DNA of 52,275 bases, taken from assembly GCA_041750235.1 (NCBI GenBank), contig JBGSZV010000258.1, forward strand, positions 1-52,275. Reading direction: 5' to 3'. Origin of the DNA: Phycisphaerales bacterium (GTDB taxonomy: Bacteria > Planctomycetota > Phycisphaerae > Phycisphaerales > UBA1924). The notes below the pieces were generated by a model. It did not search any database. It worked only from the letters and a program-made list of their open reading frames with translations, and was not told the DNA's origin. Shown piece after piece: positions 1 through 18,528 of this stretch. Position numbers and translations under genes: made by a program. Position 1 is the first letter of the stretch. Each line of letters starts with the position of its first letter.

Positions 1-197
1 ATCGCGCCTAATGGCGCGACCGCGCCGGCAATGCCGTCGGCGGCGTCGTTGGCCGCGAACCAGAGGAAGCGGCGGTGTACGCGCTGGCCCAGATGCGCCG
101 CGCCACCCTGCTCGTTCCGACGCCCTGAGGCCCGCAAGGCCCGTCACTCGCCCGATTTGACGTCCGGCCCCACGCCCGTAGACTTCGCCACTCGACC

Positions 198-272
198 GGC
201 CCCATCGTCTAGCCCGGTCTAGGACGCCAGGTTCTCATCCTGGAAACCGGGGTTCGAATCCCCGTGGGGTCA
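198..272 (+). tRNA. tRNA-Glu (anticodon CUC), 75 nt, CCA not encoded
   Basis: Cloverleaf folded by hand. Acceptor GGCCCCA/TGGGGTC (one G-U), D stem GTCT/GGAC, anticodon stem CCAGG/CCTGG with loop TTCTCAT (anticodon CTC), T stem CGGGG/CCCCG with loop TTCGAAT, discriminator A. Confidence 0.9.
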
Positions 273-347
273 TTGTCCCTTGAGATAGATACGTACATAT
301 CCCCCGCCACGCGGGGACGTCGTATCTGTGGAATCAGCAATCGGCCA
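263..347 (+). repeat. Direct repeat copy R1: tRNA 3' end (cgtggggtca), 14-nt spacer, 41-nt hairpin (287-327), conserved right flank
   Basis: Hairpin AGATACG..CCCCGC-cac-GCGGGG..CGTATCT. The same layout recurs at 25205-25281 and 38986-39059. Confidence 0.85.
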
Positions 348-359
348 AGTCGCCGCAAG

Positions 360-403
360 CAGGCAGAGTTTGTCGTGCGAGAAACCCTGCCTGTTCTCGT
401 TTT
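360..403 (+). terminator. Possible intrinsic terminator (plus-strand orientation)
   Basis: Stem CAGGCAG(a)GTTT / AAAC(c)CTGCCTG with a 10-nt loop, followed by TTCTCGTTTT. Confidence 0.35.
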
Positions 404-406
404 GGA

Positions 407-2395
407 TCACGCCTTCACGGCGATCTGAACACTACACAAAGCTTGCGCATCTGATTTCGCGCCGCCCATCACGATCGGCACACGCCGGATGTGCAACTTC
501 GCCCTTCCCGTGTCGCGGTCGTAGTTGATCGATTCGACGCAGCGCCGGATCGCCGCCTGCCGTTCGTTCACCGCGCCCTCCTTCAACAGACCATCCAAGC
601 ACGCCACGAACCGTGCGGTGTCGTCGATCAGCGCCTTGATCTCCTCGCGACCGAGCGATGCGTGCTCCAGTTCATCCCGTTCGTGCTCCAGCAACTCACG
701 CTCGCGCTGGAGCTCCTTCAGCCGTGCGTCCACAGCCGCTCGGTTCCCCGCCGTGATGTTGTCGAGCAGGTTCCGAGTCGTGAGTTCGAGCTTGTTGATC
801 GCGTGCTCGATCTCCGCGCCGCGCTCAATCGCCCGCTCGCGTTCCGAGCCGATCGACTCCCCCACCGCTCCCGCCAACGCCTTGCGGCCGTGATCGCCCG
901 TGAACGGCTCGTAGGCCTTCAGGACGGCTCGGATTACCGCCTCCTCAATCGCCGCCTGCGGCACCGCACCCCGCTTGCAGACACTTCGACCCCGCCGGAT
1001 GTAGCCGCCGCAGGCGTAGCAGTAGCACTTGGCGCGTGGCGATCCGTCCTTGGGCTTCGCGCCGCTGGGATCGATACAACCCTCATAGCGACTCTGGCAA
1101 TGAGCGCACCGGATCAGACCCGACAGGAGGAACCGTGACCGAGGGCCGGTCCAACCGCCGGTCACCCGCTGATCCGACGTTGGATCCCCAGCGCTCGCGA
1201 TCGCGGCCTGCTGCATGAGTGCCTTCGCCTCATGGAACACGCGACGCGGCACCAGCGCGGGGTGAGCGTCTTGGGTCACCAGCCAGTCGGCCTCGTCGTT
1301 GGGTTCCAGCCGACGACCGTTCTTGCCTCCGATTGCCTTGCGTTCGATGGCTCGACCGTCGCCCGCGATGCGGAAGAATCGAGCATCAGTTCTTCGGTTC
1401 CACGCAAGGTCCCCCGAGTACGCCGGGTTGAGGAGGATGGCCCGGACCGTCGTCATCGCCCATTGCCCGCTGTAGTGGCCCGACCATTCCGGGCCACGCG
1501 CCGTCGGCACGCCCTTGCGATTGAGGTGGTCCGCGATGGCTTTCAGACCCTTGCGCTCCTCGACATAGAGCCGGAAGATCAGCTTGACGGTCTTCACCCG
1601 TTCCTTATCGCTGGGCACCAGCGTGCAGCGGTCGCGCTTCGAGACCGCGATGGATTCACCCCGAGCGAGGATGCGGACCGGTTCTCCCTTCTCGTTGAGC
1701 ATCTGCTTGGTGCCGTCGCGTTCGTACCGGAGGAAGAACAGGAACTGGCCGCTCTGGCTCTCATAGCAAAGGTCGAATCCGAACGGCGGTGCGCCGCCCA
1801 TCCAGAAGCCGCCCGCTTTGTCGCCGTTGGCGTGCTTGGCGATGGTCGCCTTGGAGACCAGCCCTCGGATCGCCACCTTGGCGAGGTCCTTGGACTCCTG
1901 CCGTGCCTGCCATTGCTTGACGGGACGGAGCAGGTCGTCGGTGCCGTCGCCGGTGAAGCCCTCGCTGGCGTAGTGGACCTCGACGCCTGATTGCCGCAGG
2001 AGATGCCTGTAGTAGCCCGCCTCGTCATTGCCGACACGCCCGAAGCGCTTCACGTCGTAGACCACCACGACGCTGAAGTCACAGCCAGGTGCGGCGGCGT
2101 CGGCCATCATCTGCTGGAAAGCCTTACGGCCGATCGTGCTGGTGCCGCTGATGGCGTCGTCGACGTAGCACCGGAGGAGCCGCAGGCCGTTCTCCTCGGC
2201 GTAGCGTTCGACAGCGCGCTTCTGGTCCGGGATCGACTGCTCCTGGCGGTCGGTGGATCGGCGCAGGTAGCCGACGGCACGAGTCGCACGGTGTGGCGTT
2301 GGGCCACGGCTGCGTGGTCGCTTGGATTCGCTGGCGTCAAACGGTAGGTCGCCGGTCTCGCCGTCCGTGATCTGGATGCTGGAATGTTTGCCCAT
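407..2395 (-). CDS. Large serine recombinase (resolvase/invertase N-terminal domain + recombinase domain + zinc ribbon + coiled coil)
   Basis: N-terminal YLRRSTDRQ catalytic-Ser motif, Cys-rich ribbon (CAHCQSRYEG...CYCYACGG) and a long C-terminal coiled-coil-like region. 662 aa. SD GAGGAGG lies upstream of the ATG. Confidence 0.9.
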   Translation of the reverse strand: MGKHSSIQITDGETGDLPFDASESKRPRSRGPTPHRATRAVGYLRRSTDRQEQSIPDQKRAVERYAEENGLRLLRCYVDDAISGTSTIGRKAFQQMMADAAAPGCDFSVVVVYDVKRFGRVGNDEAGYYRHLLRQSGVEVHYASEGFTGDGTDDLLRPVKQWQARQESKDLAKVAIRGLVSKATIAKHANGDKAGGFWMGGAPPFGFDLCYESQSGQFLFFLRYERDGTKQMLNEKGEPVRILARGESIAVSKRDRCTLVPSDKERVKTVKLIFRLYVEERKGLKAIADHLNRKGVPTARGPEWSGHYSGQWAMTTVRAILLNPAYSGDLAWNRRTDARFFRIAGDGRAIERKAIGGKNGRRLEPNDEADWLVTQDAHPALVPRRVFHEAKALMQQAAIASAGDPTSDQRVTGGWTGPRSRFLLSGLIRCAHCQSRYEGCIDPSGAKPKDGSPRAKCYCYACGGYIRRGRSVCKRGAVPQAAIEEAVIRAVLKAYEPFTGDHGRKALAGAVGESIGSERERAIERGAEIEHAINKLELTTRNLLDNITAGNRAAVDARLKELQRERELLEHERDELEHASLGREEIKALIDDTARFVACLDGLLKEGAVNERQAAIRRCVESINYDRDTGRAKLHIRRVPIVMGGAKSDAQALCSVQIAVKA

Positions 2396-2403
2396 CGATA
2401 CCT

Positions 2404-2450
2404 CCTCAACGGCCGTTCGAAAGACCGTTGAGGCGTATCAGGGCGTATCT
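2404..2450 (-). promoter_or_regulatory. 5' leader of the recombinase gene: 9-bp hairpin overlapping the SD, plus tandem GGCGTATC repeats
   Basis: CCTCAACGG (2404-2412) pairs with CCGTTGAGG (2425-2433). On the minus-strand mRNA the 3' arm overlaps GAGGAGG. GGCGTATCA/GGGCGTATCT are tandem at 2432-2450. Confidence 0.4.
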
Positions 2451-2761
2451 CGGGCCGGATAGCGAGGCGATGAATACCTAATCCGATGAGGCACGCGCGT
2501 GTTGGCGTGGATTTGAACGGAAACGGTGGACCTGGTGCTGACCGATCCGCCGTATGGGATCGGGTACGAGAGGCGCCGGTCAAACAGCAGGTCCATCCCC
2601 GCCACCTCGGCCACCGAGTACCCCTCGGCGGTCAGATACTCCACGCACGCGCGGCGGTCTTCGATGGCCAGCGAACTGCCCGCCAGAGAGCCCGCACGCA
2701 GCTGCTGGATCAGTTCCATGACCGGCTTGGCGCTCGGCTGCGCCGTCGATGAACTGCTCAT
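2438..2761 (-). CDS. Small hypothetical protein, translationally coupled to the ParB-methylase; C-terminal third probably not native
   Basis: Its ATG overlaps the upstream stop (ATGA at 2758-2761). The N-terminal 60 aa look protein-like. Beyond about 2580 the frame reads the antisense of a methylase-motif relic. Confidence 0.4.
   Translation of the reverse strand: MSSSSTAQPSAKPVMELIQQLRAGSLAGSSLAIEDRRACVEYLTAEGYSVAEVAGMDLLFDRRLSYPIPYGGSVSTRSTVSVQIHANTRVPHRIRYSSPRYPARDTP
2526..2570 (+). pseudogene. Isolated DNA methyltransferase motif IV relic (VDLVLTDPPYGIGYE)
   Basis: A 15-codon stretch matches the consensus DPPY motif. It is preceded by an in-frame stop at 2514-2516 and followed by non-protein-like sequence. 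Confidence 0.35.
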
Positions 2762-4176
2762 GCGGCCTCGCTCCGCGCCGGCTCATCGAGCTTGTAGCGC
2801 TTGACGAGATCGGCGGGGGCTCTGGCCTCCCCCACTGTTGCGATCCAACGTCGCACGATGACGTCGCAGTACACCGGGCTGATCTCGATGGCGGCGCAGC
2901 GCCGGCCGAGGCGCTCAGCGGCGATGAGCTGGCTGCCCGAGCCGCAGAAGGGCTCGTAGATGAGCGCATTGGGCAGCGTGTGCTGTCTGATCGGGATCTC
3001 GAAGAGCTGCAATGGCTTGCTGGTGGGATGCTCGGTGGGCGCACCGACGGGAATCGTCGGCACCTGCCAGACGCTCGGCAGCACATCGACGGCTCTTCGT
3101 GGGGGCTTGTTGGGCCGGATCCAGCCCATCAGGCACGGCTCGTGCTGCCACGAGTACCAGCTCCTGGTCAGGATCGGCCGGTCCTTGCACCAGATGATCT
3201 GCTGGTGCACGAATGCCCCGTGTTTGGTCCAGACTTCCTCGAGCATCGCCTGACGCCGGGAAGCGTGCCAGCAGTACCAGGCTGCGTCCTTGGTGATCGC
3301 TTCCGCGATCGCGACCGCGATGAACTTGTCGTAGAGGTCTGGGTTGGCATCGAAGTCGTCCCACGTGATGCCGTAGGTGCCGGACCAGTCCTTGTTGGCG
3401 TCCGCCTTGGGCGGCGGAGCCGTTGATCGCTTCGCAGCAACAGTGGTTGATCGCTTCTTCTCGATTCGCGATCGAAGATCCGCCGTGGCGGACTCGAGAT
3501 TCGCTGCTCGGGGCTTCTTCTTGGAAGCAGGGTGGTTCATCCCGTCGTATCCGACCAGGTACGGCGGGTCCGTTGAGAACAGGATCGCGCGGGTGCCGAA
3601 CTCCTTGATCAGCTTCCGCACCTGCTTGGCGTCGGTGCAGTCGCCGCAGAGCAGGCGGTGCTGACCGAGCGCCAGCATCTCGCCGGGTTTGGTGACCGGC
3701 TTGCGCTGGTGCGCGGCGGCCATCTCGGCCTCGACGTCGAAGTTCTCCGGCTGGTCGTCGCCGAGGATCTCCGCGATCAGGTCTCGTGCCTCCGGCATAT
3801 CGAAGCCCGTCAACGTGAGGTCGAAGTCCGGCAGGTGGATCAGCTCATCGAGCAGCTCCGCCAGCTTGGTCTCGTCCCATGCGCCCGCGATCTTGTTGAG
3901 GGCGAGGTTGAGGGCTTTTTCGCGCTCGATGGGGAGGTCGACGACGCTGACTTGGGCGTCTTTGGCCCCTTGGGCGAGCAGGACCTTGAACCGCTGGTGG
4001 CCGCCGACAAGGTGGCCGGTGCGCTTGTTCCAGACCAAGGGCTCCACGCAGCCGAACTCGTCGAGGCTCTTCTTGAGCTTCTCGTACTCGGGGTCGCCGG
4101 GCTGGAGGTCCTTGCGGGGGTTGTACGGCGCGCAGTTGATGCGCGAACACGCGATCGATTGGATGCGCATGAACAA
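2758..4176 (-). CDS. ParB-like nuclease domain fused to an N4/N6 DNA methyltransferase
   Basis: N-terminal ParB-like segment (CVEPLVWNKRTGHLVGGHQRFKVL), motif IV STDPPYLVGYDG and motif I EPFCGSGSQLIAAE. 472 aa. Confidence 0.85.
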   Translation of the reverse strand: MFMRIQSIACSRINCAPYNPRKDLQPGDPEYEKLKKSLDEFGCVEPLVWNKRTGHLVGGHQRFKVLLAQGAKDAQVSVVDLPIEREKALNLALNKIAGAWDETKLAELLDELIHLPDFDLTLTGFDMPEARDLIAEILGDDQPENFDVEAEMAAAHQRKPVTKPGEMLALGQHRLLCGDCTDAKQVRKLIKEFGTRAILFSTDPPYLVGYDGMNHPASKKKPRAANLESATADLRSRIEKKRSTTVAAKRSTAPPPKADANKDWSGTYGITWDDFDANPDLYDKFIAVAIAEAITKDAAWYCWHASRRQAMLEEVWTKHGAFVHQQIIWCKDRPILTRSWYSWQHEPCLMGWIRPNKPPRRAVDVLPSVWQVPTIPVGAPTEHPTSKPLQLFEIPIRQHTLPNALIYEPFCGSGSQLIAAERLGRRCAAIEISPVYCDVIVRRWIATVGEARAPADLVKRYKLDEPARSEAA

Positions 4177-4432
4177 TGGTCCTGATGAGGATGGGGGTGG
4201 TTCAGCTTGTCGTCGATCGGCCGCGATGAACCGATCGGGCAGGCGCCACGCTGGCGACGTTGTGCAGACGTCGCACTCTGACTTCCTCTATCGCGTCAAG
4301 GAATTAAATCCGTCATCGGCAATGTGATCGTGCACTCCTGAACAATTTCTCTATGAGAAACCCCAGCTTCGAGATTTGTGCCGCCGAGCGTGTCCTGTTG
4401 GCTACTCACTTCAACGCGGCCAAGGTGGCGAT

Positions 4433-5017
4433 CTAGGCATCCGCAGTGCTCGTCGCCGGCGTCTTATAGCTTGGGTTTCGCGTAACGACACCGGCCATCC
4501 GGATAGGATCAAGAACTCCAGCGACGACTGCAGCAAACTGACAGATCTCGAGCGCACACCCGTGAGGGTCATATAGCAGTTGGTCGAACGGCACCCGCAA
4601 CACGTCCACACTGATCCTGGGATTGCGGAGAGTGTTCTCCATCTCGTCACGCTGGGTCCGGTAGCGAGCGCGGATCTTGGCGTGGCTGACGCGGATTCCG
4701 ATGATTGCGTGCTGGGTAGCAACCACATCTTCAATGGAACGCTGCATCAGGATGACGCGGTAGGACCTCTGGCGTCCCATCCAATGCAGCAGCCCATGGG
4801 GGACTTCGAGCACTTGATCCGGGCGATGTTCATCGCCCAAATGGTGACCCCGCAACGCTCCTACTCCGATGAGGCCGTCGGGATCGACATGCTGGACATC
4901 GGATCCGCCCGCCTTAAGCATGCTGACCATGAGCGATACACCGGTGCGCGGAAGTCCAGTCACGAGCACTACGGGGCTCTTTGTCGAAGGTGCCAATTCT
5001 GATCGCGTGGCATTCAT
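4433..5017 (-). CDS. Sulfotransferase-family protein (putative)
   Basis: N-terminal P-loop-like PAPS motif VLVTGLPRTGVSL. Visibly lower GC than its neighbours. Confidence 0.5.
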   Translation of the reverse strand: MNATRSELAPSTKSPVVLVTGLPRTGVSLMVSMLKAGGSDVQHVDPDGLIGVGALRGHHLGDEHRPDQVLEVPHGLLHWMGRQRSYRVILMQRSIEDVVATQHAIIGIRVSHAKIRARYRTQRDEMENTLRNPRISVDVLRVPFDQLLYDPHGCALEICQFAAVVAGVLDPIRMAGVVTRNPSYKTPATSTADA

Positions 5018-5224
5018 GGAATTGACTTTCAGAGAGCATATGCGTCGGGAACTAGATGTGCGCTGCAGTTCACAAAGCTGATTTTACGCCGTGAGAATCA
5101 CGGTTTATCCGCAAATGGAACGACCAAAAGGCACCTGAGAACTTGCGACTTGCCCACATTCAGAGCCCTTCCGAGCGCGCCATTGTGGGCAACCGCCCAC
5201 ATGCGCCGATTCACGAAATAGCCC

Positions 5225-5638
5225 TTGATGTTCAGGCCACCTGACGCCCTAGTGGTGGTCATGGAACGCCACAGCAAGCCAACGGAGCAAGACGCCATGC
5301 ACACCTGCACGCCGCACGAACTCGACCCGGGCGAGATCCTGGACACCCTTGCCATGAAGCGCACCGAACCCCGCCGCATGGGCGTCGGGGGTGTCTGGGT
5401 CAGCGGCACCATCGCCGGTCACCGCTTCGAGGCGCTGGTCTTCCCCGAACACGCCGCTGACCCGGGCTTCGAGCTTGAAGGCAGCCGGATCTCCAAGCTC
5501 TGGCTCGCCATTGCCCCACGGGGCGACACCGTCGCCTGCTTCGATCGCGGGTGGGACCTCCAGCCGACCACCCCCGCCGCGGCCGTGATCGTCGACCTGT
5601 TCATCGCCGGGCTTGCCGAGCACGTCTTCGGTCGCTGA
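5225..5638 (+). CDS. Hypothetical protein (start uncertain; alternative ATGs at 5261 and 5297)
   Basis: ORF with protein-like composition. No motif recognised. Confidence 0.4.
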   Translation: MMFRPPDALVVVMERHSKPTEQDAMHTCTPHELDPGEILDTLAMKRTEPRRMGVGGVWVSGTIAGHRFEALVFPEHAADPGFELEGSRISKLWLAIAPRGDTVACFDRGWDLQPTTPAAAVIVDLFIAGLAEHVFGR

Positions 5639-5743
5639 TCGGCGAACGCCTCGAACCACCCCCCACTGCCAGCCGGGAGACCGGGTGCACGGTGATTGCG
5701 CGCCGCAGCGTGCGGCGCGAGTCTCGAAGCATGGAGAAGTGTC

Positions 5744-6256
5744 ATGAGCAGCAAGAAGTCCAAGTCGGCCCCCCAGTCCAAGCCCGCCAAGAGCGCCAAG
5801 CCTGCCAAGGCGGAGGCGACCGTCAAGAAGCCCGATGTCGCGATCGCCGCCACTGAGAAGTCACGCAAGGCCGTGATCGACTCGATCCAGGCACGGTTGG
5901 ACGGCAAGACGTCGCCGCCCAAGGCAACCCCCGTGGCCAAGGTGGCCGGGGGGGCGAAGCGAGGGAATAAGGCTCCCAAGAACGAGATCGCGCCCAAGGG
6001 TGGCCCCAAAGCCAAGCGGTCGCGGCTGAGCGCGCTCGACGCGGCGGCGCAGGTCATCGCCAAGGCGGGCAAGCCGATGCGCGTCCAGGACCTGGTGGAC
6101 GCGATGGCAACCAGCGGTCTCTGGAAGAGCCCGGGCGGCAAGACCCCTGCTGCCACCCTGTCAGCGGCGATCGGGCGCGAGATCAAGACGCTGGGGTCCA
6201 AGGCGCGGTTTAAAAAAGCAGAACGCGGGCTGTTCACGACTGTGAAGCAAAGTTGA
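5744..6256 (+). CDS. Lys/Ala/Pro-rich (histone H1-like) tail fused to a HARE-HTH-type winged helix
   Basis: MSSKKSKSAPQSKPAKSAKPAK low-complexity N-terminus. The C-terminus LSALDAAAQVIAKAGKPMRVQDLVDAM...KTPAATLSAAIGREI...RFKKAERGLFT resembles HARE-HTH. Internal ATG chosen at 5744. Confidence 0.6.
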   Translation: MSSKKSKSAPQSKPAKSAKPAKAEATVKKPDVAIAATEKSRKAVIDSIQARLDGKTSPPKATPVAKVAGGAKRGNKAPKNEIAPKGGPKAKRSRLSALDAAAQVIAKAGKPMRVQDLVDAMATSGLWKSPGGKTPAATLSAAIGREIKTLGSKARFKKAERGLFTTVKQS

Positions 6257-6285
6257 ATCCAAGCAAATGCAAAGGCCCCTGAACG

Positions 6286-6310
6286 AACGCCCGGATCTAG
6301 CCCGGGCGTT
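6286..6310 (+). terminator. Intrinsic terminator hairpin after the HARE-HTH gene
   Basis: AACGCCCGG / CCGGGCGTT 9-bp stem with a 7-nt loop, followed by TCTTACT. Confidence 0.5.
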
Positions 6311-6456
6311 TCTTACTCGGGGTGCAGTGCCGATCGTTGTTCGGTGACCACCGAAATGCCGGAACGGCAAGATGAACAACTTCGCCGCGTTCTCCGCAAA
6401 GTCCGGCTGCGTTAGAGTGGTGGTTCGCCGCGTAAACTGCCGCTTGTCGGCGGAAC

Positions 6457-8337
6457 TCAGGCCGCGATTCGCACCGTATCACATCCGTTTAGAGCGTTGA
6501 CGGCTGCAATGAATCGAGAAACGGGGGTCGGAGTGCTGAGCACCTGCCATTTCCGAGCGCCGATTGCGCCATCGTCCAAGACAACTTGGCCCGCCGGCGA
6601 CAGCATCAAAGTCGGTAGCTCTCTGACTCCAGCCTGCTGCTCCGCACTGACAAGTAGTTCAGCCAACACGCCGCGTTCCTTGGCAGCAGCGATATGAACT
6701 ACAGCAAGATTCGGTGGCTCTTCGCTCGTTGGTTCGGACAGTTCTCTACAGAAGATCCGATACGCATCAATCTCTGGAGCAGCGCTGACGTACAGAGGCC
6801 TGAACGGTACGGTCAACGTCGCTCGGAGTTGCTCAGATCGACGGGGCCAAGGCTCTCCGGTCGCATGCGACATCAGCGCGAACTTGGTGTCATCTGTCTG
6901 CTCTCGCGCCGACTCCTCAATCGCCCGGATCGTCGCGGGCGAAATGTTCAGAGCGCGGCAATGTTCCTCTGTCGGATACGTCGTCTCATTGCCGCTAGTT
7001 CCAAGGAGCATCGCGTGAGCAAGTCGATTGGCCAGACCCAGCCGCAGAATCTCCGACACCCGCGATGGCGCGACGCCTCGTACGTTCCCCGCAGAGAGGT
7101 GGTGGTACATGATCGGTTCCACCAAGTGCTTCGGGAACTTCCAGGCGTTCAACAACCGGTCCATCACGTCGGCGTGATTGAGGAGCAGCATGCGGGACTC
7201 GACCAACTCCAGCGGGGATTGGAGGCGTCGAGCAGTTTCAATGACCCGGATGTACTGGTCTCCCAACGCCTCGGCGAAGATGACTCGACCGAGGTCATGG
7301 AGCAGACCGCTCGTAAATGCGGAGTCCGCCTCAGTCGCGTTCGTAGCGTGAGCGATCTCCGCCGCGATAATGCCGCACGCAATCGAGTGCTCCCAGAACT
7401 GCGTCGTGCTCACATGCTCCTTAAACGCCGGCGAGTTGAAACGCTCGACGACGCCGATGTTCAGCACCGTCTGGCGGATGCTCTCCATGCCGATTCGAAG
7501 GATGGCCTTCTGAACGTTGTCCACGCGATCCCCGCGTGAGTACACAGACGAGTTGGCGATCTTCAGGATCTTGAGAGCCATCGCCTGGTCTTGCCTCACG
7601 GCTTTCGACACAGCCTCCAATGAACCTTTCGGGCTCGCGGTGAGCTTGAGGACTTGGGCAACCGTGGGCGAGAAACCCTTCAATTCCTCGCACGCCTTCA
7701 ATCGTTCCATGAGGTCCGAGCGGGTCAGGATCGGCTTCAAAGACTTGATGTCAATGGCGGCCGCGTTCTCACGCTCGCTCTCGGACAGACACCGCGCGAC
7801 GCACTGCTGCGCAGGCGGAACCATCGATGCCGCAGGCAACTCGTCGTTGCCAACGGGGGGAGCGACCTGCCGGGAGCCGGTCGATGGCGACATGGAGACT
7901 TTCGGAGTCTTCACCGGTGCTGCCGCAGCGGCGGTCGGCGCGGGAGCCGCATTCTCCGGCACAGCCGTGGCCGGGGCGAGCGTGGCCCGCACCTTTTCCA
8001 GCATTGCCCTGAGTGAGAAGCCGGACTTGAGCATGTAGCCAGAGATGCCGAGCTTCACTGCCTCGGTGATCTGAGCGCGGTCAGATTCGGCTGAGAGGAC
8101 GATCACCGGAGTCAGCCTGAGCAACGGGTTTGTGCGCAGCGTTCGCAGAAAAGTGAGGCCATCCATCACCGGCATCCCTAGGTCAAGAAGCACAAGCGAA
8201 GGCCTCGCCACCGAGATCGCGGCCAGCGCTTCTTGGCCGTTACACGCGCTTGTCGTCTCAAATCCCTCGGCGCGCAACACCGCCTCAATAGGTTCCCGGA
8301 ATATGGGCATGTCGTCCACGATGAGGATCGCCGCCAT
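6457..8337 (-). CDS. Response regulator receiver domain fused to an HDOD domain
   Basis: N-terminal REC (ILIVDDMP...VLLDLGMPVMDG...K). Central HDOD-like segment (TVAQVLKLTASPKGSLEAVSKAVRQDQAMALKILKIANSSVY...GLLHDLG). Confidence 0.85.
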   Translation of the reverse strand: MAAILIVDDMPIFREPIEAVLRAEGFETTSACNGQEALAAISVARPSLVLLDLGMPVMDGLTFLRTLRTNPLLRLTPVIVLSAESDRAQITEAVKLGISGYMLKSGFSLRAMLEKVRATLAPATAVPENAAPAPTAAAAAPVKTPKVSMSPSTGSRQVAPPVGNDELPAASMVPPAQQCVARCLSESERENAAAIDIKSLKPILTRSDLMERLKACEELKGFSPTVAQVLKLTASPKGSLEAVSKAVRQDQAMALKILKIANSSVYSRGDRVDNVQKAILRIGMESIRQTVLNIGVVERFNSPAFKEHVSTTQFWEHSIACGIIAAEIAHATNATEADSAFTSGLLHDLGRVIFAEALGDQYIRVIETARRLQSPLELVESRMLLLNHADVMDRLLNAWKFPKHLVEPIMYHHLSAGNVRGVAPSRVSEILRLGLANRLAHAMLLGTSGNETTYPTEEHCRALNISPATIRAIEESAREQTDDTKFALMSHATGEPWPRRSEQLRATLTVPFRPLYVSAAPEIDAYRIFCRELSEPTSEEPPNLAVVHIAAAKERGVLAELLVSAEQQAGVRELPTLMLSPAGQVVLDDGAIGARKWQVLSTPTPVSRFIAAVNALNGCDTVRIAA

Positions 8338-8590
8338 GAAGAAAGCATCGGCTCGCGGGGTTCCTTATTGAAGTTCCTGATCCCTGGCCGCAGGAGTTGC
8401 GTGTGGACACGCAACCGATTCCGGACGCAGTTCCCGACCGCCGAGTCTCATTTACCGTGTTCTGCTTGCGTAGACCGCCTGATGGCGGTTCATGTTTCAT
8501 AATCTGCGGGCGCTGAGGATCTTCGGAGCAGAACGTCCAGCGCGTGATAGCTCACAGCCCTATCATCATTGAGACTATTCAGCACCCCCG

Positions 8591-9022
8591 ATGAAGGTTC
8601 AACGCTCTGGAAGGTACGCGATGGCAGTCGGAAAGGAGTCGAGCAACAACACGGTTCCTTCAAGCCCCGGTGAGGTCGCTCGTCCGCATGTCGCAGGGCC
8701 CGGCGTGGTTTCGGTGCGCTTCAGCATCGAGGAGTTCGCCACACCGCCGGTCCGTGATGCGCTGGTGCTGGGGAGGCGGTCACCGGTCGGGTGTATGGCG
8801 CTGCGGAAGGCGCTGGCGTTTCTCCACACCGCTCCCTTTGTACACATAGAAGTCGATGATGACACGGTCGCCGATATCGTGGTCCGTGAGTCGATCGTGC
8901 GGATCGTCGGGCGCGAGAAGCTCATCGCGCTGGTCCTCCACCGCGTCAAGCCGCTGATGACCGATCTGGACATCCTGCATCTGGACATCGAGGCCAAGCT
9001 GCACCTGGAGGCGGAAGTCTAG
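8591..9022 (+). CDS. Hypothetical protein, in the same frame as the downstream kinase and separated from it by a single TAG
   Basis: The ORF ends at TAG 9020-9022. The kinase ATG at 9032 is in the identical frame. Confidence 0.3.
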   Translation: MKVQRSGRYAMAVGKESSNNTVPSSPGEVARPHVAGPGVVSVRFSIEEFATPPVRDALVLGRRSPVGCMALRKALAFLHTAPFVHIEVDDDTVADIVVRESIVRIVGREKLIALVLHRVKPLMTDLDILHLDIEAKLHLEAEV

Positions 9023-9031
9023 GCCACGGCT

Positions 9032-11293
9032 ATGCATACCCTGTGCGCCATCGACGCCCTCATTGATCGCGTACCCGTCTTCGAGTCCGACCGCTACCCC
9101 GCCGACCTTGCGGCCCGCGAGAGGAGCAGCCAAACGACGCACGTGGCGGTGGTGGATGCGGCGGAGTCTGGCCGGTTCCTTGGACTGTTAGGACTCAAGG
9201 AACTGATGGAACGCCGCCGTGGCGCGGAGCTGACCTTCGGCGATCTGGTGGCCCGCACGACGACGCTCCGGGTCGGTCCACAAACGCCTTTACTGGAAGT
9301 GGTTGACCGACTCATCGAGCACAAGCAGGATGCGGCGGCCGTGCTCGATACAGATGGCCAGTATCTGGGGACGGTGACCGTTGCCGAAGCCCGGCAGCGG
9401 CTGGTGGAGCGCCGAGCCAAGGTCCTTGCAGAAGGCGAGCGGCACTTTCGGTCCATCTTCGAGCAGGTCGCGGTGGGCGTCGCCCAGGTCGCCCCCGACG
9501 GACGCTGGATGGAGGTCAACCCACGGCTGTGCACCATCGTTGGCTACACCAGGGAAGAACTCCTGGCCACGACGCTCTCAGCCATCATACACCCCGATGA
9601 CCAGGGCATCGACCATGACCACATGCTCCGCCTTCTCGCCGGCGAAATGGAGACGTACTCGACGGAGAAGCGATATCGTCGAAAGGACGGCGAGTTCATC
9701 TGGGTCAATGCCACTGTATCGCTGGTACGGGATGTGAAAAGGGGGAGAAGACCTTTGCATTTCGTATCGGTGGTCGAGGACATCAACGCGCGCAAGCTCG
9801 CCGAGGTGGTTGCCGCTGAAGCCGCGGCGAGTCTTGAACTGGCCGTGAAGGCCTCCAATATCGGTCTGTGGGATTGGGACCTGCGCACCAATAGGGCGTG
9901 CTTTTCACGGGTATGGAAGAGCCAGCTCGGTTACGCCGAGCACGAGATTGCCGACGAGTACTTCGAGTGGGAGCGGCGCGTTCACCCTGACGATCTGGGG
10001 TGGGCGAAGTCTCGTATCGAGCGATGCCTCACAGCGCCGTACGGGCCGTACGAGGTCGAGTTTCGCATGCGCCACAAGGATGGCTCATGGCGCTGGATGT
10101 ACACCCGGGGCGAGATCACCCGGGATGCAGTCGGCACGCCGATCCGCATGCTCGGCTGCCACGTCGATGTGACCGAATCAAAGCGGTTGACCAAGGATGC
10201 CCGGGCATCGGCGGCGCTTCTTCGGGCCACGATCGACGCTCTTGCGTTCAGCACCGCCGTCATCGACCGCACGGGACGGGTCGTCATTGTCAATCGATGG
10301 TGGCGCGCGTTCGCAGCGGAGAACGGCGGCGGCTACTCCACCGGGCTTGAAGGGGTCAACTACCTTGACGTCTGCGACCAGGTGTCGGGCGAATTGGCCG
10401 ATGATTCCAGCACCTTCTCCGCTTCGCTGCGATCGGTGCTCGCGGGCGGTTCGGATCCCATGCCCATGGAGTATGCCTGCCATTCTCCGACACAGAAACG
10501 GTGGTTCCAGGCCTGGATTCACGGGTTCTCCCAGGGTGCGGATCGTTTCGCGGTGATCACGCACCAGGATGTCACAGCGGTCCGTCTGGCTGCCGGGCGT
10601 GAAGCGGCCAACCAGCAACGCAAAACGGTCGCCATCATCGCCGCGGGCGTGGCCCACGAGTTCAACAGCTTGCTCTTCGCGGCGGCACTTCAGTTGCACC
10701 GACACCTCCACGGGCCGACGGGTGCTGGCGAGCCGAGCAAGTCGCTGGCGGTCGAGCTGATCCAGCAGGCCCAGTCGCTCGCTTCGGCGCTGCTCGACCT
10801 TTACTCCGGACCGGCGACCGGGCGGACCCAGTTGCTGTCGCTCTACCCGTGGCTGCGCGAGACGGTGGCGCGGCTCGCAACGGTCCTTCCTCCGGGCATC
10901 CACGTCACCACAGAGGTCGAGTTTGATCTACCCGAGGCCATCGGGCACGCTTTGGGACTGGAGCAGGTGCTCCGGAACCTGCTCTTCAACGCCGCCAATG
11001 TGCTGGGCGATCGCGGCGAGATCCGGGTGCGCGCGGCGCTGGCGTCCATCGATGGCCGACCGATGATTGAGATACGCGTCAGCGACAACGGCCCGGGCAT
11101 CCCCGAATCGCTGCGATCTCAAGTCTTTGAGCCGGGATTCACCACCAAGACGCAGGCGTACCGCTCGGGGCTGGGGCTCGCCATTGCGACCCAGCTGCTT
11201 GAGCAGTTCCGCGGCTCGCTTTCCTATGAGCCAGTCACGCCCACGGGTTCGACGTTCATCGTCCGGCTTGACGCCCGACTTGGAGATGCCTGA
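9032..11293 (+). CDS. CBS-pair / multi-PAS sensor histidine kinase
   Basis: CBS-like N-terminus, at least three PAS segments, HisKA H-box AAGVAHEFNSLL, and HATPase_c motifs (NLLFNAANV, DNGPGIP, GLGLA). Confidence 0.85.
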   Translation: MHTLCAIDALIDRVPVFESDRYPADLAARERSSQTTHVAVVDAAESGRFLGLLGLKELMERRRGAELTFGDLVARTTTLRVGPQTPLLEVVDRLIEHKQDAAAVLDTDGQYLGTVTVAEARQRLVERRAKVLAEGERHFRSIFEQVAVGVAQVAPDGRWMEVNPRLCTIVGYTREELLATTLSAIIHPDDQGIDHDHMLRLLAGEMETYSTEKRYRRKDGEFIWVNATVSLVRDVKRGRRPLHFVSVVEDINARKLAEVVAAEAAASLELAVKASNIGLWDWDLRTNRACFSRVWKSQLGYAEHEIADEYFEWERRVHPDDLGWAKSRIERCLTAPYGPYEVEFRMRHKDGSWRWMYTRGEITRDAVGTPIRMLGCHVDVTESKRLTKDARASAALLRATIDALAFSTAVIDRTGRVVIVNRWWRAFAAENGGGYSTGLEGVNYLDVCDQVSGELADDSSTFSASLRSVLAGGSDPMPMEYACHSPTQKRWFQAWIHGFSQGADRFAVITHQDVTAVRLAAGREAANQQRKTVAIIAAGVAHEFNSLLFAAALQLHRHLHGPTGAGEPSKSLAVELIQQAQSLASALLDLYSGPATGRTQLLSLYPWLRETVARLATVLPPGIHVTTEVEFDLPEAIGHALGLEQVLRNLLFNAANVLGDRGEIRVRAALASIDGRPMIEIRVSDNGPGIPESLRSQVFEPGFTTKTQAYRSGLGLAIATQLLEQFRGSLSYEPVTPTGSTFIVRLDARLGDA

Positions 11294-11946
11294 TGAGCAG
11301 CTTCTTTACGATTGTGTTCGCCGATGACCACCCGATCCTGCGGCAGGGACTTGAGGGGCAGTTCGCCGCCATGGAGGGGTTCACGGTCGTCGGCAGCGTC
11401 GGCGATGCCCAGTCGGCGGTAAACCTCTGCCGCGAGCGACGCCCGGATCTGCTGCTGCTGGATGTCGAGATGCCGGGGCGCGATGCGCTGGGGGCCATGA
11501 CCGACATCAAGGCGGTCAGCCCCGACACGCGGATCGTGATCTTTACCGCATTCTGCCGCGATCGGCTGATCGATCTGGCTATTGAAGGCGGGGCCGCTGG
11601 TTACCTGCTCAAGTCCGACTCTCCGCAGCACATCCTCGACGCACTGTCCAGAGTGATGAAGGGCGAGCGGGTGTACTCCAAGGATGTGCTGGCACGCCTC
11701 TCGCGATCGGGCCGTGAGGCGGACCATGGTGATGCTGGTGTGACGCTTCTCTCAACACTCAGCCCACGCGAGCTTGAGGTGCTCCGCTACATCGGCAAAG
11801 GCCAGGACAACGCCACGATGGCGGAGGCCATGCACCTCTCCATCCGGACCGTCGAGCGCCACGTATTGCGGCTGATGCGGCACATGCAGATCGACGACCG
11901 AACGCGCCTCACAGCGCTGGCGCACGAGTGCGGGCTGGTCTCCTGA
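11293..11946 (+). CDS. NarL/FixJ (LuxR-type HTH) response regulator
   Basis: ATGA overlap with the kinase stop. REC (FADDHPILRQG...LLLLDVEMPG) plus a C-terminal LuxR HTH (LSPRELEVLRYIGKGQDNATMAEAMHLSIRTVERH). Confidence 0.9.
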   Translation: MSSFFTIVFADDHPILRQGLEGQFAAMEGFTVVGSVGDAQSAVNLCRERRPDLLLLDVEMPGRDALGAMTDIKAVSPDTRIVIFTAFCRDRLIDLAIEGGAAGYLLKSDSPQHILDALSRVMKGERVYSKDVLARLSRSGREADHGDAGVTLLSTLSPRELEVLRYIGKGQDNATMAEAMHLSIRTVERHVLRLMRHMQIDDRTRLTALAHECGLVS

Positions 11947-12411
11947 ATACCGTCCTCCGGACACGATTGCGCAAGGACACGCAACAAGCCGCCTCAACCG
12001 AAGGGCGATACAAAGGGTGGCTCAGAAGCCGCGCGATTGTTGCTCCGTAGTCGCGTCAAATCCTCCGTGCCGCTGGTGGGGTTGTTCGTCCCACCATCGG
12101 TTTGTCTCTGTCCGCGCTGGAATCACCGCCCCTTCGCCCTCCGTCGCCCTCTGCGCGGCCGGAGGGTGGACGATCGATCAAGGAGACCGGAGTCGTGCCG
12201 CCATTGCTCCGACAGTCCGAAACCCACTCCGCTCCGGCCGGGCCTCACGCTCATCGATGTACGCAGCATGGCGTGCTGCGGGCGGCGCCGCATCTCGAAG
12301 CGCAGCACGAGTGGCTCGTGGGGCGCTCTTGCAAAGGCGAGGTTCGCCGCATCGATCATCCGAAGCATCATCAACAATGCGACGCGCGATGCAGGAAGAG
12401 CGGCGCCTGAG

Positions 12412-16548: not shown

Positions 16549-16557
16549 GAGATTCCC

Positions 16558-17001
16558 ATGATTGATCAACCAGGAGCTGATGCACGAGCATTTGCCGGCA
16601 GGCCGGACACCCGCGGACCTCCTTTGGATACGTCTGCCCTGTTGCAGCAGTGCATGGGCAACGCCGAGCTAGTGGTCATGCTGGTCGACAAGTTCGAGAA
16701 GCAGGCCTGTGAGGACATCGCACGGATCGAGCAAGCCATTGCTACGAGAGATGTCGGACAGACGACCCGAGTATCGCACGCGCTCAAGGGCGCGGCCGGG
16801 GCGCTGTCTGCGATCGATGTACAGAGAACCGCAGCGGATATCGAGCTCTCCGCCCGCGAGAACCGGCTGGAGTCCGCCGCGGAGTGCTTCAACGAACTGA
16901 AGGCGGAGGTCGATCGTTGCTTGGCCTACTTACCCACCGTTCGCGCTGTTGCAAATGGCGCGGCACGGACCTCGACCCCTGAACCCGAAAGGATCCCATG
17001 A
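16558..17001 (+). CDS. Hpt (histidine phosphotransfer) domain protein
   Basis: HALKGAAGALSA phosphotransfer motif. AGGAG SD. Sits between the hybrid kinase and a response regulator. Confidence 0.8.
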   Translation: MIDQPGADARAFAGRPDTRGPPLDTSALLQQCMGNAELVVMLVDKFEKQACEDIARIEQAIATRDVGQTTRVSHALKGAAGALSAIDVQRTAADIELSARENRLESAAECFNELKAEVDRCLAYLPTVRAVANGAARTSTPEPERIP

Positions 17002-18014
17002 GAATTCTGGTCGCCGACGACTCCGACATCATTCGTACGCTCATGCAGACGACGCTTGCGAGCGCCGGTTTCGATGTCATCACAGCGACCGATGGAACCG
17101 AAGCATTCGAGATGCTGTGCGCAGGCGAGGCGAGGATGGTGATCTCCGATTGGGAGATGCCCGGGATGACCGGCCCTGAGCTCTGCCAGAAGCTGCGGGC
17201 CGCCGACCTGCCCAACTATATCTACGTCATGCTCGTAACTTCACACACAGCCGCCGAGGAACGCGTCGCGGGGCTCGCCGCAGGAGCGGACGATTTTGTC
17301 GCCAAGCCATTCAATCCCGCTGAACTGATCGAACGAGCCCGCGCGGGTGAACGAGTGCTCTCGCTTGAGACCCGTGATGTAGCCATCTTTGCCATGGCGA
17401 AACTAGCGGAGTCGAGGGACCCCGAGACTGGAGCGCATCTCGAGCGCGTGCAGGGCTACACCCGCGTCCTCGCACAGCAACTCGCTGCCCTGGAAAAATA
17501 CAAAGACATCGTGGACGCCGAGTACATCCGGCTGATGCACCTCACCAGTCCGCTGCACGATATTGGGAAGGTCGGTGTTCCAGACTCGGTCCTGCTCAAG
17601 CCCGATCGCCTGACGGACTTTGAGTTCACAATCATGAAGACACACGCTGCAATAGGTGCGGAAACTTTGGACGCAGCTCTCGCCAAGTTCCCGAACACCA
17701 AGTTCCTCCAAATGGCTCGCGACATCGCCGCAACACACCACGAACGCTGGGACGGTTCGGGGTACCCAAACGGTCTCGTCGGACCCGCCATCCCACTCAG
17801 CGGCCGCATCATGGCTCTCGCCGATGTCTATGACGCTCTGACATCCAAGCGTGTGTACAAGAACGCGTTCACGCACGAGATCGCACGATCGATGATCCTC
17901 AAAGATGCTGGCACGCACTTCGACCCGGACATCGTCGCGGCATTCGTGCGTTCCGAGCAACAGTTTATCGACATCCGTGCGCAGTACGCGGAGTCTCAAG
18001 CGATCGCGGCGTAG
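16998..18014 (+). CDS. Response regulator with an HD-GYP domain (RpfG-type c-di-GMP phosphodiesterase)
   Basis: ATGA overlap with Hpt. REC (ILVADDSD...ISDWEMPGMTG), HD (PLHDIGKVGVP) and HHERWDGSGYP motifs. Confidence 0.9.
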   Translation: MRILVADDSDIIRTLMQTTLASAGFDVITATDGTEAFEMLCAGEARMVISDWEMPGMTGPELCQKLRAADLPNYIYVMLVTSHTAAEERVAGLAAGADDFVAKPFNPAELIERARAGERVLSLETRDVAIFAMAKLAESRDPETGAHLERVQGYTRVLAQQLAALEKYKDIVDAEYIRLMHLTSPLHDIGKVGVPDSVLLKPDRLTDFEFTIMKTHAAIGAETLDAALAKFPNTKFLQMARDIAATHHERWDGSGYPNGLVGPAIPLSGRIMALADVYDALTSKRVYKNAFTHEIARSMILKDAGTHFDPDIVAAFVRSEQQFIDIRAQYAESQAIAA

Positions 18015-18052
18015 GCAGCGATCAACGGTTCTGCGGGAACGGAACCGATACG

Positions 18053-18500: not shown

Positions 18501-18528
18501 CTTGTGGACGCTGCGCAACCGGCTAGAA
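18501..18528 (+). promoter_or_regulatory. Candidate sigma70-type promoter for the lipoprotein/CHAT genes
   Basis: TTGTGG - 16 nt - TAGAAT, about 70 nt upstream of the 18597 ATG. Confidence 0.25.

What the first reader, a model, noticed from the sequence alone, without database searches (positions are those of the whole stretch)
287..327. Covarying 40-42 nt hairpin inside each repeat: candidate recombination site or structured RNA
All three copies (287-327, 25227-25266, 39001-39042) fold the same way. There is an outer 7-bp stem, an asymmetric internal loop (6-7 nt on the 5' side, 2-4 nt on the 3' side), and an inner G/C stem capped by a loop containing CAC. The stems differ between copies in a compensated way. 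The outer stem is AGATACG/CGTATCT in R1 and R2 but AAGTACG/CGTACTT in R3, with two paired changes. The inner stem is CCCCGC/GCGGGG, ATCCCGC/GCGGGAT and TCCCCC/GGGGGA. Preserved pairing argues for selection on dyad symmetry or structure. It could be a serine-recombinase att site with inverted half-sites, a cruciform, or an RNA element. It has no U-tract, so it is not a standard terminator.
Basis: seen in the sequence. Interest (0 to 1): 0.7.

Follow-up and report, generated by a model that had tools for sequence, protein, structure and literature searches.

The report
Terminator-like hairpin in island attachment repeats
The three hairpins are real and sit in three copies of the attachment-site repeat left by serine-recombinase genomic islands stacked behind a tRNA-Glu gene, but each most likely works as a portable transcription stop or insulator for the tRNA rather than as the DNA crossover point, so it is a fairly ordinary part of an undescribed island family.

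Summary
All three hairpins exist at the stated coordinates and fold as described (z -2.9 to -5.7). R3 carries two compensated outer-stem pairs.

They are not free-standing. Each lies in a ~90-110 nt imperfect direct repeat: a tRNA-Glu 3' end or degenerate copy, a 9-nt spacer, a purine-rich box, then the hairpin. The repeats bound a 25-kb island encoding a 662-aa large serine recombinase (LSR) and a 13.7-kb nos segment, both directly 3' of tRNA-Glu(CTC).

LSR homologues in Planctomycetota MAGs repeatedly sit convergent with tRNA-Glu and carry the same module. The box is conserved, while the GC-rich stem-loop varies freely in sequence and length. Hairpin type follows the right-hand neighbour (the LSR), not the left flank, so the crossover lies left of the hairpin, near the tRNA 3' end.

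In relatives the equivalent hairpin is an unmistakable intrinsic terminator with a GUCGUUUUUGG tail. The window's 3' outer strand (GUCGUAUCUGUGG) aligns with that tail.

Best reading: a terminator or insulator stem-loop that each island brings to replace the tRNA trailer. Its 5' strand overlaps a probable recombinase half-site box. The crossover-in-loop reading is disfavoured. No Rfam family matches. Interest is modest.

The parts
157..184 (+). Promoter-like site (TTGACG-16-TAGACT) upstream of the tRNA
198..272 (+). tRNA-Glu(CTC), the integration target. CCA is not encoded.
   Evidence: Rfam tRNA, 58 bits.
262..350 (+). Repeat R1 (attL-type junction): tRNA 3' end CGTGGGGTCA, 9-nt spacer, box, hairpin, then the conserved ..CAGCAATCGG tail
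282..301 (+). Conserved purine-rich box GAGATAGATACG-TA-CATATC (family consensus GAGAnnGAnAnG-TG-CnTATC). Probable right-arm recombinase recognition box. It contains the 5' outer-stem strand of the hairpin.
   Evidence: Absent from 120 unrelated tRNA-Glu loci.
287..327 (+). Hairpin copy 1: outer stem 287-293/321-327, inner stem 302-307/311-316, loop CAC
358..405 (+). Second stem-loop (358-395) with tail UUCUCGUUUUGG, ending at the LSR stop codon. Terminator-like on the tRNA-sense strand.
   Evidence: z -3.0 on +, -4.1 on -.
407..2395 (-). Large serine recombinase, 662 aa, convergent with the tRNA
   Evidence: invariant Y43, R45, R46, S47 and flanking residues in the N-terminal Resolvase-domain region.
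273..25216 (.). Island 1 (~25 kb). Cargo: LSR, type II MTase, HDOD/PAS/HK/RR signalling genes, CHAT, E1-like ThiF, CapP-like M78 peptidase.
   Evidence: Bounded by R1 and R2.
25100..25216 (+). Conserved non-coding right end of island 1 (P arm), ending in a degenerate tRNA 3' end ..TCCTCGTCCGCCTATGATCGTGGGGTCA. Homologous to the arm in L081.
25205..25290 (+). Repeat R2, the junction between the right end of island 1 and the next segment
25227..25266 (+). Hairpin copy 2. It lies between the convergent M78 peptidase gene (ends 25074) and the cytochrome gene (stop at 25295).
25267..38974 (.). Segment 2 (13.7 kb): nos (N2O reductase) cluster with no recombinase gene
38960..39065 (+). Repeat R3: degenerate junction (CCCGGGCTCA in place of CGTGGGGTCA), hairpin, then the ..CAGCAACCGG tail
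39001..39042 (+). Hairpin copy 3, with two compensated pairs in the outer stem

Best explanation
The window shows a tRNA-Glu(CTC) gene followed by two tandem inserted segments. The first is a 25-kb island that encodes a large serine recombinase (LSR). The second is a 13.7-kb nos segment with no recombinase.

The three repeats R1, R2 and R3 are the attachment-site junctions: attL, an island-island junction, and a degenerate terminal junction. Recombination most probably occurs at or just after the tRNA 3' end (about 266-276 in R1). The whole trailer to the right of that point therefore travels with the DNA on its right. That trailer comprises the 9-nt spacer, the purine-rich box and the hairpin.

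The hairpin is best explained as a terminator or insulator stem-loop. It would act as RNA, mainly on the tRNA-sense strand and possibly in both directions. Each island carries one at its left end so that the displaced tRNA keeps a 3' trailer or terminator, and so that tRNA read-through does not run antisense into the convergent recombinase gene.

The 5' strand of the outer stem lies inside the conserved box, which probably serves as the distal recognition motif of the recombinase's right half-site. The 3' strand is the diverged U-rich terminator tail, and it has drifted to pair with that constrained box.

Shown: the repeat anatomy, the association with the LSR family, the variability of the hairpin against the conservation of the box, and the linkage of hairpin type to the right arm. 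Inferred: the exact crossover position, terminator activity, and binding of the box by the recombinase.
For: (1) Anatomy. The repeats show 74% column identity over ~149 columns. Each starts with the tRNA 3' end or a degenerate copy of it. The LSR lies directly next to R1.

(2) Family. There are 786 LSR homologues at E <= 1e-30, mostly from Planctomycetota and Phycisphaerae MAGs. Of the 80 genome loci, 10 have tRNA-Glu and 7 have tRNA-Met on the opposite strand to the LSR. A trailer profile finds the same module in 18 of the 80 genome loci, and also in L081-L083.

(3) The box GAGAnnGAnAnG-TG-CnTATC is conserved. The following stem-loop differs completely in sequence, stem length (6-14 bp) and loop between elements, yet is almost always present. 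Trailer z-scores are mostly -2 to -5, but four are weaker than -1.2.

(4) Hairpin type follows the right-hand neighbour. The LSR-proximal type ..TGGTGCATAACGGCC.. occurs behind a true tRNA (L004), behind island ends (L002, L003, L005) and behind pseudo-tRNA stubs (L001c3, L083c3). Copies not next to an LSR carry a different hairpin. The right arm of R1 resembles that of L081 (LSR 66% identical). The left arm of R2 matches the island-end arm of L081.

(5) Terminator homology. At the same position, L012, L060, L036 and L026 have hairpin + UUUUGUUUG or GUCGUUUUUGG. The tRNA-Met relatives L044, L051, L075 and L078 have textbook terminators (z -3.4 to -8.1). In L075 and L078 these are built as an A-rich/U-rich outer stem around a GC inner stem, and they are kept even inside the LSR ORF. 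The tails of R1-R3 (GUCGUAUCUGUGG, GUCGUAUCUGCG, GUCGUACUUAUGG) align with that tail.

(6) Other terminator-like hairpins in the window share this architecture or tail: 47549-47584 and 45867-45903 + UUCGUUUGG.

(7) All three copies lie at the 3' end of at least one transcription unit.

(8) Across 22 copies, G-U pairs number 28 on the tRNA-sense strand and 12 on the other.

(9) Of 120 unrelated tRNA-Glu loci sharing the same 3' 22-mer, none has the box or an LSR. The module therefore belongs to the element family.
Against: The window copies have no clean U-tract (3-4 U in the 10 nt after the inner stem).

R1 is followed 30 nt later by a second, better terminator-like hairpin (358-405), so the first may be redundant as a terminator.

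For R2 and R3 the minus-strand fold is slightly more stable.

The outer stem is present in only some lineages: the window, L068/L026, L060 and L081.

Several LSR-proximal hairpins (L001c3, L004, L006) are weak (z about 0 to -1).

No empty site from a close relative could be recovered, so the native trailer is unknown.

The crossover position is inferred from junction comparisons only. The dyad-symmetry analysis was marginal for island-end copies and absent for tRNA-adjacent copies.

No transcript data exist.
Confidence: 0.55

Rival explanations
1. The hairpin is itself the LSR attachment site: a ~41-bp pseudo-palindrome whose outer arms are the half-site motifs, with the crossover in the CAC loop.
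For: An LSR gene is adjacent. The element is 41 bp long, with inverted arms 14-20 bp from its centre. That is the range where zinc-ribbon-domain motifs lie in LSR sites (attB 11-19, attP 16-24; PMC3783163). The element occurs at all three junctions.
Against: In homologous elements the spacing between the arms ranges from 27 to ~45 nt, and the inner sequence is unrelated. Many lineages lack the 3' arm altogether (L082, L001-L005, L012). The halves of one copy pair better with each other than with halves from another copy. Hairpin type is inherited with the right arm only. A loop crossover would also leave the ~45-nt tRNA-like left homology of R2 unexplained.
Confidence: 0.08
2. The hairpin is a recombination accessory. 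It could be a second, overlapping recombinase-binding site (inverted copies of the ATACG-type motif). It could instead be an extrudable cruciform that modulates site choice or directionality, or permits serial (tandem) capture of islands.
For: The 5' outer strand lies inside the conserved LSR-associated box. In the window, the 3' strand is a perfect inverted copy of it in all three junctions, and the two changed together in R3. Tandem arrays are frequent in this family (L001, L083, L009 and the window).
Against: The outer stem is not general in the family. No LSR is known to need secondary sites or cruciforms: 'small (<50 bp) substrates' (PMC1470463 abstract; PMC3783163). The variable geometry argues against a protein-binding role.
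Confidence: 0.12
3. It is a structured non-coding RNA, or a tRNA 3'-processing or stability element (a trailer-derived sRNA), rather than a terminator.
For: It lies directly downstream of a tRNA that lacks an encoded CCA. There is a G-U bias on the tRNA-sense strand. Pairing is preserved through changes.
Against: No Rfam family matches, even at E <= 1. There are no conserved loop or bulge nucleotides, and the stem register is not conserved between lineages. That pattern is typical of generic hairpins, not of specific RNA folds. R2 and R3 are not next to a tRNA.
Confidence: 0.08
4. It is a relic with no present function. All copies descend from one ancestral tRNA-trailer hairpin, and they still pair only because they are young.
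For: R1-R3 are 83% identical over the hairpin. With three copies the covariation cannot be tested statistically. Some family members have decayed hairpins.
Against: R3 has two adjacent fully compensated pairs and R2 has one. Across the family a stable hairpin is retained although its sequence has turned over completely.
Confidence: 0.15

Closest known systems
Intrinsic (often bidirectional) terminators downstream of tRNA genes and between convergent genes
   Same: A GC-rich stem-loop directly after a tRNA, or between convergent genes. A purine/A-rich 5' flank pairs with a U-rich 3' flank. Sequence is free while structure is kept. Relatives at the same position have a canonical U-tract.
   Different: The window copies have an interrupted U-tract (GUCGUAUCUGUGG), an 8+4-nt internal loop, and a 5' flank that is a conserved element-specific box. 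Termination has not been tested.
Large serine recombinase att sites (A118/LI, Bxb1, phiC31)
   Same: An LSR is adjacent. The junction repeats flank the element. A conserved box lies roughly 13-22 bp from the inferred crossover, where zinc-ribbon-domain motifs lie (PMC3783163).
   Different: Classical attP and attB are ~40-50 bp and share little beyond the central dinucleotide. Here the junction copies are homologous over >100 bp, target a tRNA 3' end and include a hairpin. No clear dyad or central dinucleotide could be defined.
SCCmec-type composite islands (CcrAB serine recombinases; own knowledge)
   Same: Serine-recombinase elements accumulate in tandem at the 3' end of one conserved gene. 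They are separated by imperfect direct repeats of the integration site, and some segments lack their own recombinase.
   Different: The target there is rlmH/orfX, not a tRNA. The repeats are ~15-20 bp and contain no hairpin module. The recombinase clade and the host phylum also differ.
tRNA-targeting tyrosine-integrase islands and prophages (own knowledge)
   Same: The element carries a copy of the target's 3' part, so the gene unit is restored after integration. Displaced degenerate 3' ends mark the far junctions. Tandem arrays form at one tRNA.
   Different: The recombinase here is a serine enzyme. The restored part is mainly the trailer or terminator rather than the tRNA body (Glu clade).
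Integron attC and other hairpin recombination sites (own knowledge)
   Same: An imperfect hairpin with unpaired bases, structure conserved over sequence, associated with mobile DNA.
   Different: attC sites are recombined as folded single strands by a tyrosine integrase (IntI) and flank cassettes. There is no integron integrase here, and no evidence that the crossover lies in the hairpin.

Membership tests
LSR attachment site (the hairpin itself as the site) | A large serine recombinase gene adjacent to or within the bounded element | tested here: met
   ORF at 407-2395 (-) with Resolvase + Recombinase + Zn_ribbon_recom domains. Invariant Y43, R45, R46, S47 and flanking residues in the N-terminal Resolvase-domain region.
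LSR attachment site (the hairpin itself as the site) | Fixed-geometry ~40-50 bp pseudo-palindrome, with half-sites of ~20-25 bp around a central crossover dinucleotide, conserved among related recombinases | tested here: not met
   Arm spacing ranges from 27 to ~45 nt and the inner sequence is unrelated among homologous elements. The 3' arm is absent in many. The reference geometry is from PMC3783163.
LSR attachment site (the hairpin itself as the site) | The crossover lies inside the site, so the junction copies are chimeras of left and right parents | tested here: not met
   Hairpin type segregates as a unit with the right-hand neighbour. Own halves pair better than swapped halves (sequence).
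LSR attachment site (the hairpin itself as the site) | Recombinase binds and recombines the site | not testable with these tools
   Needs in vitro recombination or EMSA.
att-junction repeats of a tRNA-targeting integrative island (the ~100-nt repeat as a whole) | Direct repeats bound the element. One is at the tRNA 3' end, and the others carry a partial or degenerate tRNA 3' end. | tested here: met
   R1 is at the tRNA. R2 has CGTGGGGTCA and R3 has CCCGGGCTCA.
att-junction repeats of a tRNA-targeting integrative island (the ~100-nt repeat as a whole) | The same recombinase family shows the same target and the same module in other genomes | tested here: met
   10 tRNA-Glu-adjacent loci and 18 loci with the module among the 80 genome loci, plus L081-L083.
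att-junction repeats of a tRNA-targeting integrative island (the ~100-nt repeat as a whole) | An empty site, or an excised circle with the reciprocal junction | tested here: inconclusive
   No close relative of the host was found. L081 shows an island-end arm joined to an LSR-side arm, but whether this is a circle or a tandem array could not be decided.
Intrinsic (Rho-independent) terminator | Stable GC-rich stem-loop | tested here: met
   -18.6 to -23.7 kcal/mol, z -2.9 to -5.7.
Intrinsic (Rho-independent) terminator | U-tract immediately 3' of the stem | tested here: inconclusive
   The window tails are only partly U-rich. They were not listed among the terminator-like sites in 1-20000 for R1. 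Homologous positions in L012, L060, L036, L044, L051, L075 and L078 have clear U-tracts.
Intrinsic (Rho-independent) terminator | Located at the 3' end of a transcription unit | tested here: met
   R1 lies after the tRNA and before the LSR stop. R2 lies between convergent genes. R3 lies 180 nt after the Rrf2 gene.
Intrinsic (Rho-independent) terminator | Causes transcript 3' ends | not testable with these tools
   Needs Term-seq, RNA-seq or an in vitro assay.
Described structured RNA family (Rfam) | Match to a curated covariance model | tested here: not met
   Only the tRNA passes the gathering score. Nothing overlaps the hairpins at E <= 1.

The most novel reading that the evidence does not exclude
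The stem-loop is a functional part of the recombination system of an undescribed clade of tRNA-targeting large serine recombinases. Its two outer strands are inverted copies of the distal half-site motif. They would form a second, overlapping binding site, or an extrudable cruciform or RNA switch. This would regenerate a usable target next to the tRNA after each integration and so drive tandem stacking of islands, including recombinase-less cargo such as the nos cluster.
Probability: 0.12. Interest if true: 0.7.

Novelty: new variant of a known kind. Interest (0 to 1): 0.3.

Why it matters
As a terminator-type hairpin inside att repeats, the element itself is ordinary.

The context is the useful part. 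It defines a large, undescribed family of serine-recombinase islands in Planctomycetota and Phycisphaerae. These target the 3' ends of tRNA-Glu and tRNA-Met, carry their own tRNA trailer or terminator, and stack in tandem.

That gives concrete attL/attR/attP predictions for a recombinase clade that could be tested as a genome-engineering tool. It also flags a nosZ (N2O reductase) gene cluster that sits between two such junctions and may therefore be mobilisable.

Finally, it is a caution for covariation-based RNA discovery. Portable terminators embedded in att repeats mimic covarying structured RNAs.

Tried and rejected
(1) A viral-contig scan with the tRNA-end + box pattern returned 35 hits. 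All were chance or unrelated coding sequence, so there is no evidence for a phage origin.

It returned 120 loci from many phyla. None has the box or an LSR. This is useful as a negative control but gave no empty site of the host.

(3) A homologue search with the DUF892 neighbour of R3, meant to find an unoccupied site, found no close orthologue (best 57% identity over the domain only).

(4) The narrow covariance model of the three hairpins found no further copies in 639 kb. A MAFFT alignment of 15 family trailers is not in structural register, so column-wise covariation across the family was not computed. Hairpin presence and z-scores were used instead.

(5) A dyad-symmetry scan to locate an LSR-type centre gave a marginal peak 2-3 nt after the tRNA discriminator in island-end copies (0.37 against a background of 0.24). 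It gave none in tRNA-adjacent copies, so it is not used as proof.

(6) I first considered a crossover at the centre of the mini-palindrome GATAnG-NN-CnTATC (perfect in L082, L012 and L001). I dropped it because L083 copies diverge straight after GGGGTCGT, and because the spacer+box type is lineage-specific together with the LSR-side arm.

(7) Two literature searches found no described LSR family that targets tRNA 3' ends with a hairpin-bearing att repeat.

(8) Rfam at a permissive threshold found nothing.

Full report
**1. Observation**

The three hairpins are present exactly where stated.
- R1 (287-327): AGATACG-TACATATC-CCCCGC-CAC-GCGGGG-ACGT-CGTATCT.
- R2 (25227-25266): AGATACG-CACCAC-ATCCCGC-CACC-GCGGGAT-GT-CGTATCT.
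- R3 (39001-39042): AAGTACG-CCCTTA-TCCCCC-GGCACGA-GGGGGA-CGT-CGTACTT.

Each folds as an outer 7-9-bp stem, an asymmetric internal loop and a GC inner stem, on either strand. On the + strand the z-scores are -3.98, -5.73 and -2.91.

On the three-copy alignment, 97% of the proposed pair cells form pairs, against 30-58% when the partners are slid. R3 has two adjacent outer-stem pairs changed on both sides. With three sequences the shuffle control cannot give significance (61/500). In the inner stem there is one true double change (R2). The rest is register slippage in C/G runs.

A covariance model built from the three copies recovers only these three in 639 kb. No Rfam family matches.

**2. Context in the window**

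The hairpins are embedded in longer imperfect direct repeats (74% column identity over ~149 columns). Each repeat begins with the 3' end of tRNA-Glu or a degenerate copy of it: CGTGGGGTCA in R1 and R2, CCCGGGCTCA in R3.

tRNA-Glu(CTC) lies at 198-272, with a promoter-like site at 157-184. A 662-aa large serine recombinase (LSR) with Resolvase, Recombinase and Zn_ribbon_recom domains lies at 407-2395 on the opposite strand.

R1 and R2 bound a 25-kb segment. It carries the LSR, a type II methyltransferase, many signalling proteins, a CHAT protein, an E1-like ThiF and a CapP-like M78 peptidase. R2 and R3 bound a 13.7-kb nos cluster that has no recombinase.

**3. The family**

The LSR has 786 homologues at E <= 1e-30. 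Nearly all named ones come from Planctomycetota or Phycisphaerae MAGs, and 190 places in the genome collection encode a relative.

In the 80 loci fetched, 10 have tRNA-Glu (TTC or CTC), 7 have tRNA-Met and 1 has tRNA-Ser. The tRNA is always on the strand opposite the LSR.

Downstream of tRNA-Glu there is a shared module:
- the tRNA end;
- a ~9-nt spacer;
- a box, GAGAnnGAnAnG-TG-CnTATC;
- a GC-rich stem-loop.

A profile of this module finds it in 18 of the 80 genome loci, in L081-L083 (the closest LSRs, 59-66% identical) and in the window.

Copies fall into two classes by their left flank. One class follows a genuine tRNA T-arm. The other follows a conserved island end (..CACCCTATGGTTTTGGGGTC) that looks like a decayed tRNA 3' end. 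The left flank of window R2 (TCCTCGTCCGCCTATGATCGTGGGGTCA) is the same arm as in L081 (TCCTCGTCCCAGCATGATCGTGGGGTCA), with homology over ~100 nt.

R1 is therefore an attL-type junction (tRNA | island left end). R2 is island right end | next segment. R3 is a degenerate junction of the same kind.

Of 120 unrelated metagenomic tRNA-Glu loci with the identical 3' 22-mer, none has the box or an LSR. The module therefore belongs to the element family and not to tRNA-Glu genes in general.

**4. Where the crossover is**

Three observations place it left of the hairpin, near the tRNA 3' end.

(a) tRNA-type and island-end-type copies start to resemble each other at TGGGGTC.

(b) Among the closely related elements L001-L005 and L083, the LSR-proximal hairpin type (..GATATGGTGCATAACGGCC[T/G]CC..) occurs behind three different left flanks. 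These are a real tRNA (L004), island ends (L002, L003, L005) and pseudo-tRNA stubs (L001c3, L083c3). Copies not followed by an LSR carry another hairpin (..GGTGCCTATCGGCCTTCGCG..). In L083, neighbouring copies diverge immediately after GGGGTCGT.

(c) The right arm of R1 resembles the right arm of L081, while the right arm of R2 does not.

In addition, the two halves of each window hairpin fit each other better than halves from different copies. That is expected if each hairpin is inherited as one piece.

A dyad-symmetry scan gave only a marginal centre 2-3 nt after the discriminator base in island-end copies. It gave none in tRNA-adjacent copies. The exact crossover therefore remains inferred.

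If the crossover is at about 274, the 5' outer strand AGATACG (287-293) lies 13-19 bp from it. That is the range where LSR zinc-ribbon-domain motifs lie: 11-19 in attB and 16-24 in attP, with 25-bp half-sites (PMC3783163). The box may then be the right-arm recognition motif. This step is inference.

**5. What the hairpin does**

Across the family the box is conserved. The stem-loop turns over completely in sequence, stem length and loop size, yet is nearly always there. This is selection on pairing, not on sequence or geometry, and it is hard to reconcile with a recombinase footprint.

At the same position other members have plain intrinsic terminators:
- L012: stem + AUUUUGUUUGUGG.
- L060 and L036: stem + GUCGUUUUUGG.
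- tRNA-Met-targeting relatives L044 and L051: stem + GUCGUUU.
- L075 and L078: AAAGAAG-GC stem-CUUCUUU, z -7 to -8, retained even though it lies inside the 3' end of the LSR ORF.

The tails of R1-R3 (GUCGUAUCUGUGG, GUCGUAUCUGCG, GUCGUACUUAUGG) align with this GUCGUUUUUGG tail.

Two other terminator-like hairpins in the window are comparable. One is at 47549-47584, between convergent genes. The other is at 45867-45903 with tail UUCGUUUGG. Textbook terminators are not enriched in this DNA (8 found against 11.7 expected).

All three copies lie at the 3' end of at least one gene. Over 22 copies, G-U pairs are more frequent on the tRNA-sense strand (28 against 12).

The most likely mechanism is this. 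Integration at the tRNA 3' end separates the tRNA from its own trailer. The island supplies a replacement stem-loop that ends tRNA transcription and shields the convergent LSR gene from antisense read-through. The displaced copies remain at the distal junctions.

**6. Caveats**

- The window copies lack a clean U-tract.
- R1 is followed by a second, better terminator-like hairpin at 358-405.
- R2 and R3 fold slightly better on the minus strand.
- The outer stem exists in only some lineages: the window, L068/L026, L060 and L081.
- Some LSR-proximal hairpins are weak.
- There are no transcript or recombination data.

A role of the dyad in recombinase binding or in tandem capture therefore cannot be excluded. 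I give this about 0.1-0.2 in total.

**7. Comparison and verdict**

The arrangement works like two known systems. One is tRNA-targeting integrative islands that restore the target's 3' part. The other is SCC-type tandem arrays made by serine recombinases. The hairpin works like an intrinsic or bidirectional terminator.

It is not a member of any described RNA family. It fails the geometry and chimera tests for being an LSR att site itself.

The element family appears undescribed in the searched literature. Its features are LSR islands at tRNA-Glu and tRNA-Met 3' ends in Planctomycetota, long homologous junction repeats and a portable trailer hairpin. It is nonetheless a variant of known kinds. 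Interest is modest (0.3).

Noticed in passing
window 25295-38823: A complete nos (N2O reductase) cluster lies exactly between junction repeats R2 and R3, with no recombinase of its own. It comprises a multihaem cytochrome, a 4Fe-4S/TPR protein, cytochrome c, NosZ (30428-32578), NosD, NosF, NosY, two Rrf2 regulators and ScdA. It may be a mobilisable or remnant island.
   Followed up: partly
window 358-405: A second strong stem-loop (358-395) is followed on the + strand by UUCUCGUUUUGG and ends at the LSR stop codon. It looks like a better tRNA-sense terminator than the hairpin under study.
   Followed up: partly
window 25100-25215; L081 ~11690-11800: There is a ~100-nt conserved non-coding segment at the island's right end, with a GGGTGACA(C/A)AAC box. 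Other lineages carry CTATGACAAAAAGGACACC at the same place. It could be a regulator or RDF binding site, or a promoter.
   Followed up: no
window 38969-38990: A near-perfect 22-bp palindrome, ACGAcGAGCCC|GGGCTCaTCGT, lies in the tRNA-like part of R3. The GGGGTC to GGGCTC change is mirrored by GAGCCC upstream.
   Followed up: no
L001 ~4976-5349; L083 ~12263-12562; L009 ~7610-7785: Tandem ~135-190-nt mini-units consist of trailer + hairpin + a pseudo T-arm. A motif GGGGTTCGTAGCG / TATGAACCC recurs near LSRs of the tRNA-Met type (L021, L024, L035, L044, L051, L067). Its function is unknown.
   Followed up: no
L083 9365-12286: An IS1595-family element (terminal inverted repeats ATGCACTTGACATAAC) has inserted into the trailer copy next to the LSR, splitting the att module.
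   Followed up: no
L073, L075, L078: In tRNA-Met-targeting relatives, the 3' end of the LSR ORF overlaps the 3' half of the tRNA gene on the other strand. The tRNA's terminator hairpin lies inside the LSR coding sequence.
   Followed up: partly
window 19068-25074: The island cargo near the right end includes a CHAT-domain protein, an E1-like ThiF (weak PADLOC E1-E2 hits) and a CapP-like M78 peptidase (PADLOC capP, 7e-35). This may be a defence or damage-responsive regulatory module.
   Followed up: partly
window 37088-37433 and 38366-38714: Two paralogous Rrf2 regulator genes, 1.28 kb apart (70-85% DNA identity), flank the ScdA-like gene at the end of the nos segment.
   Followed up: no
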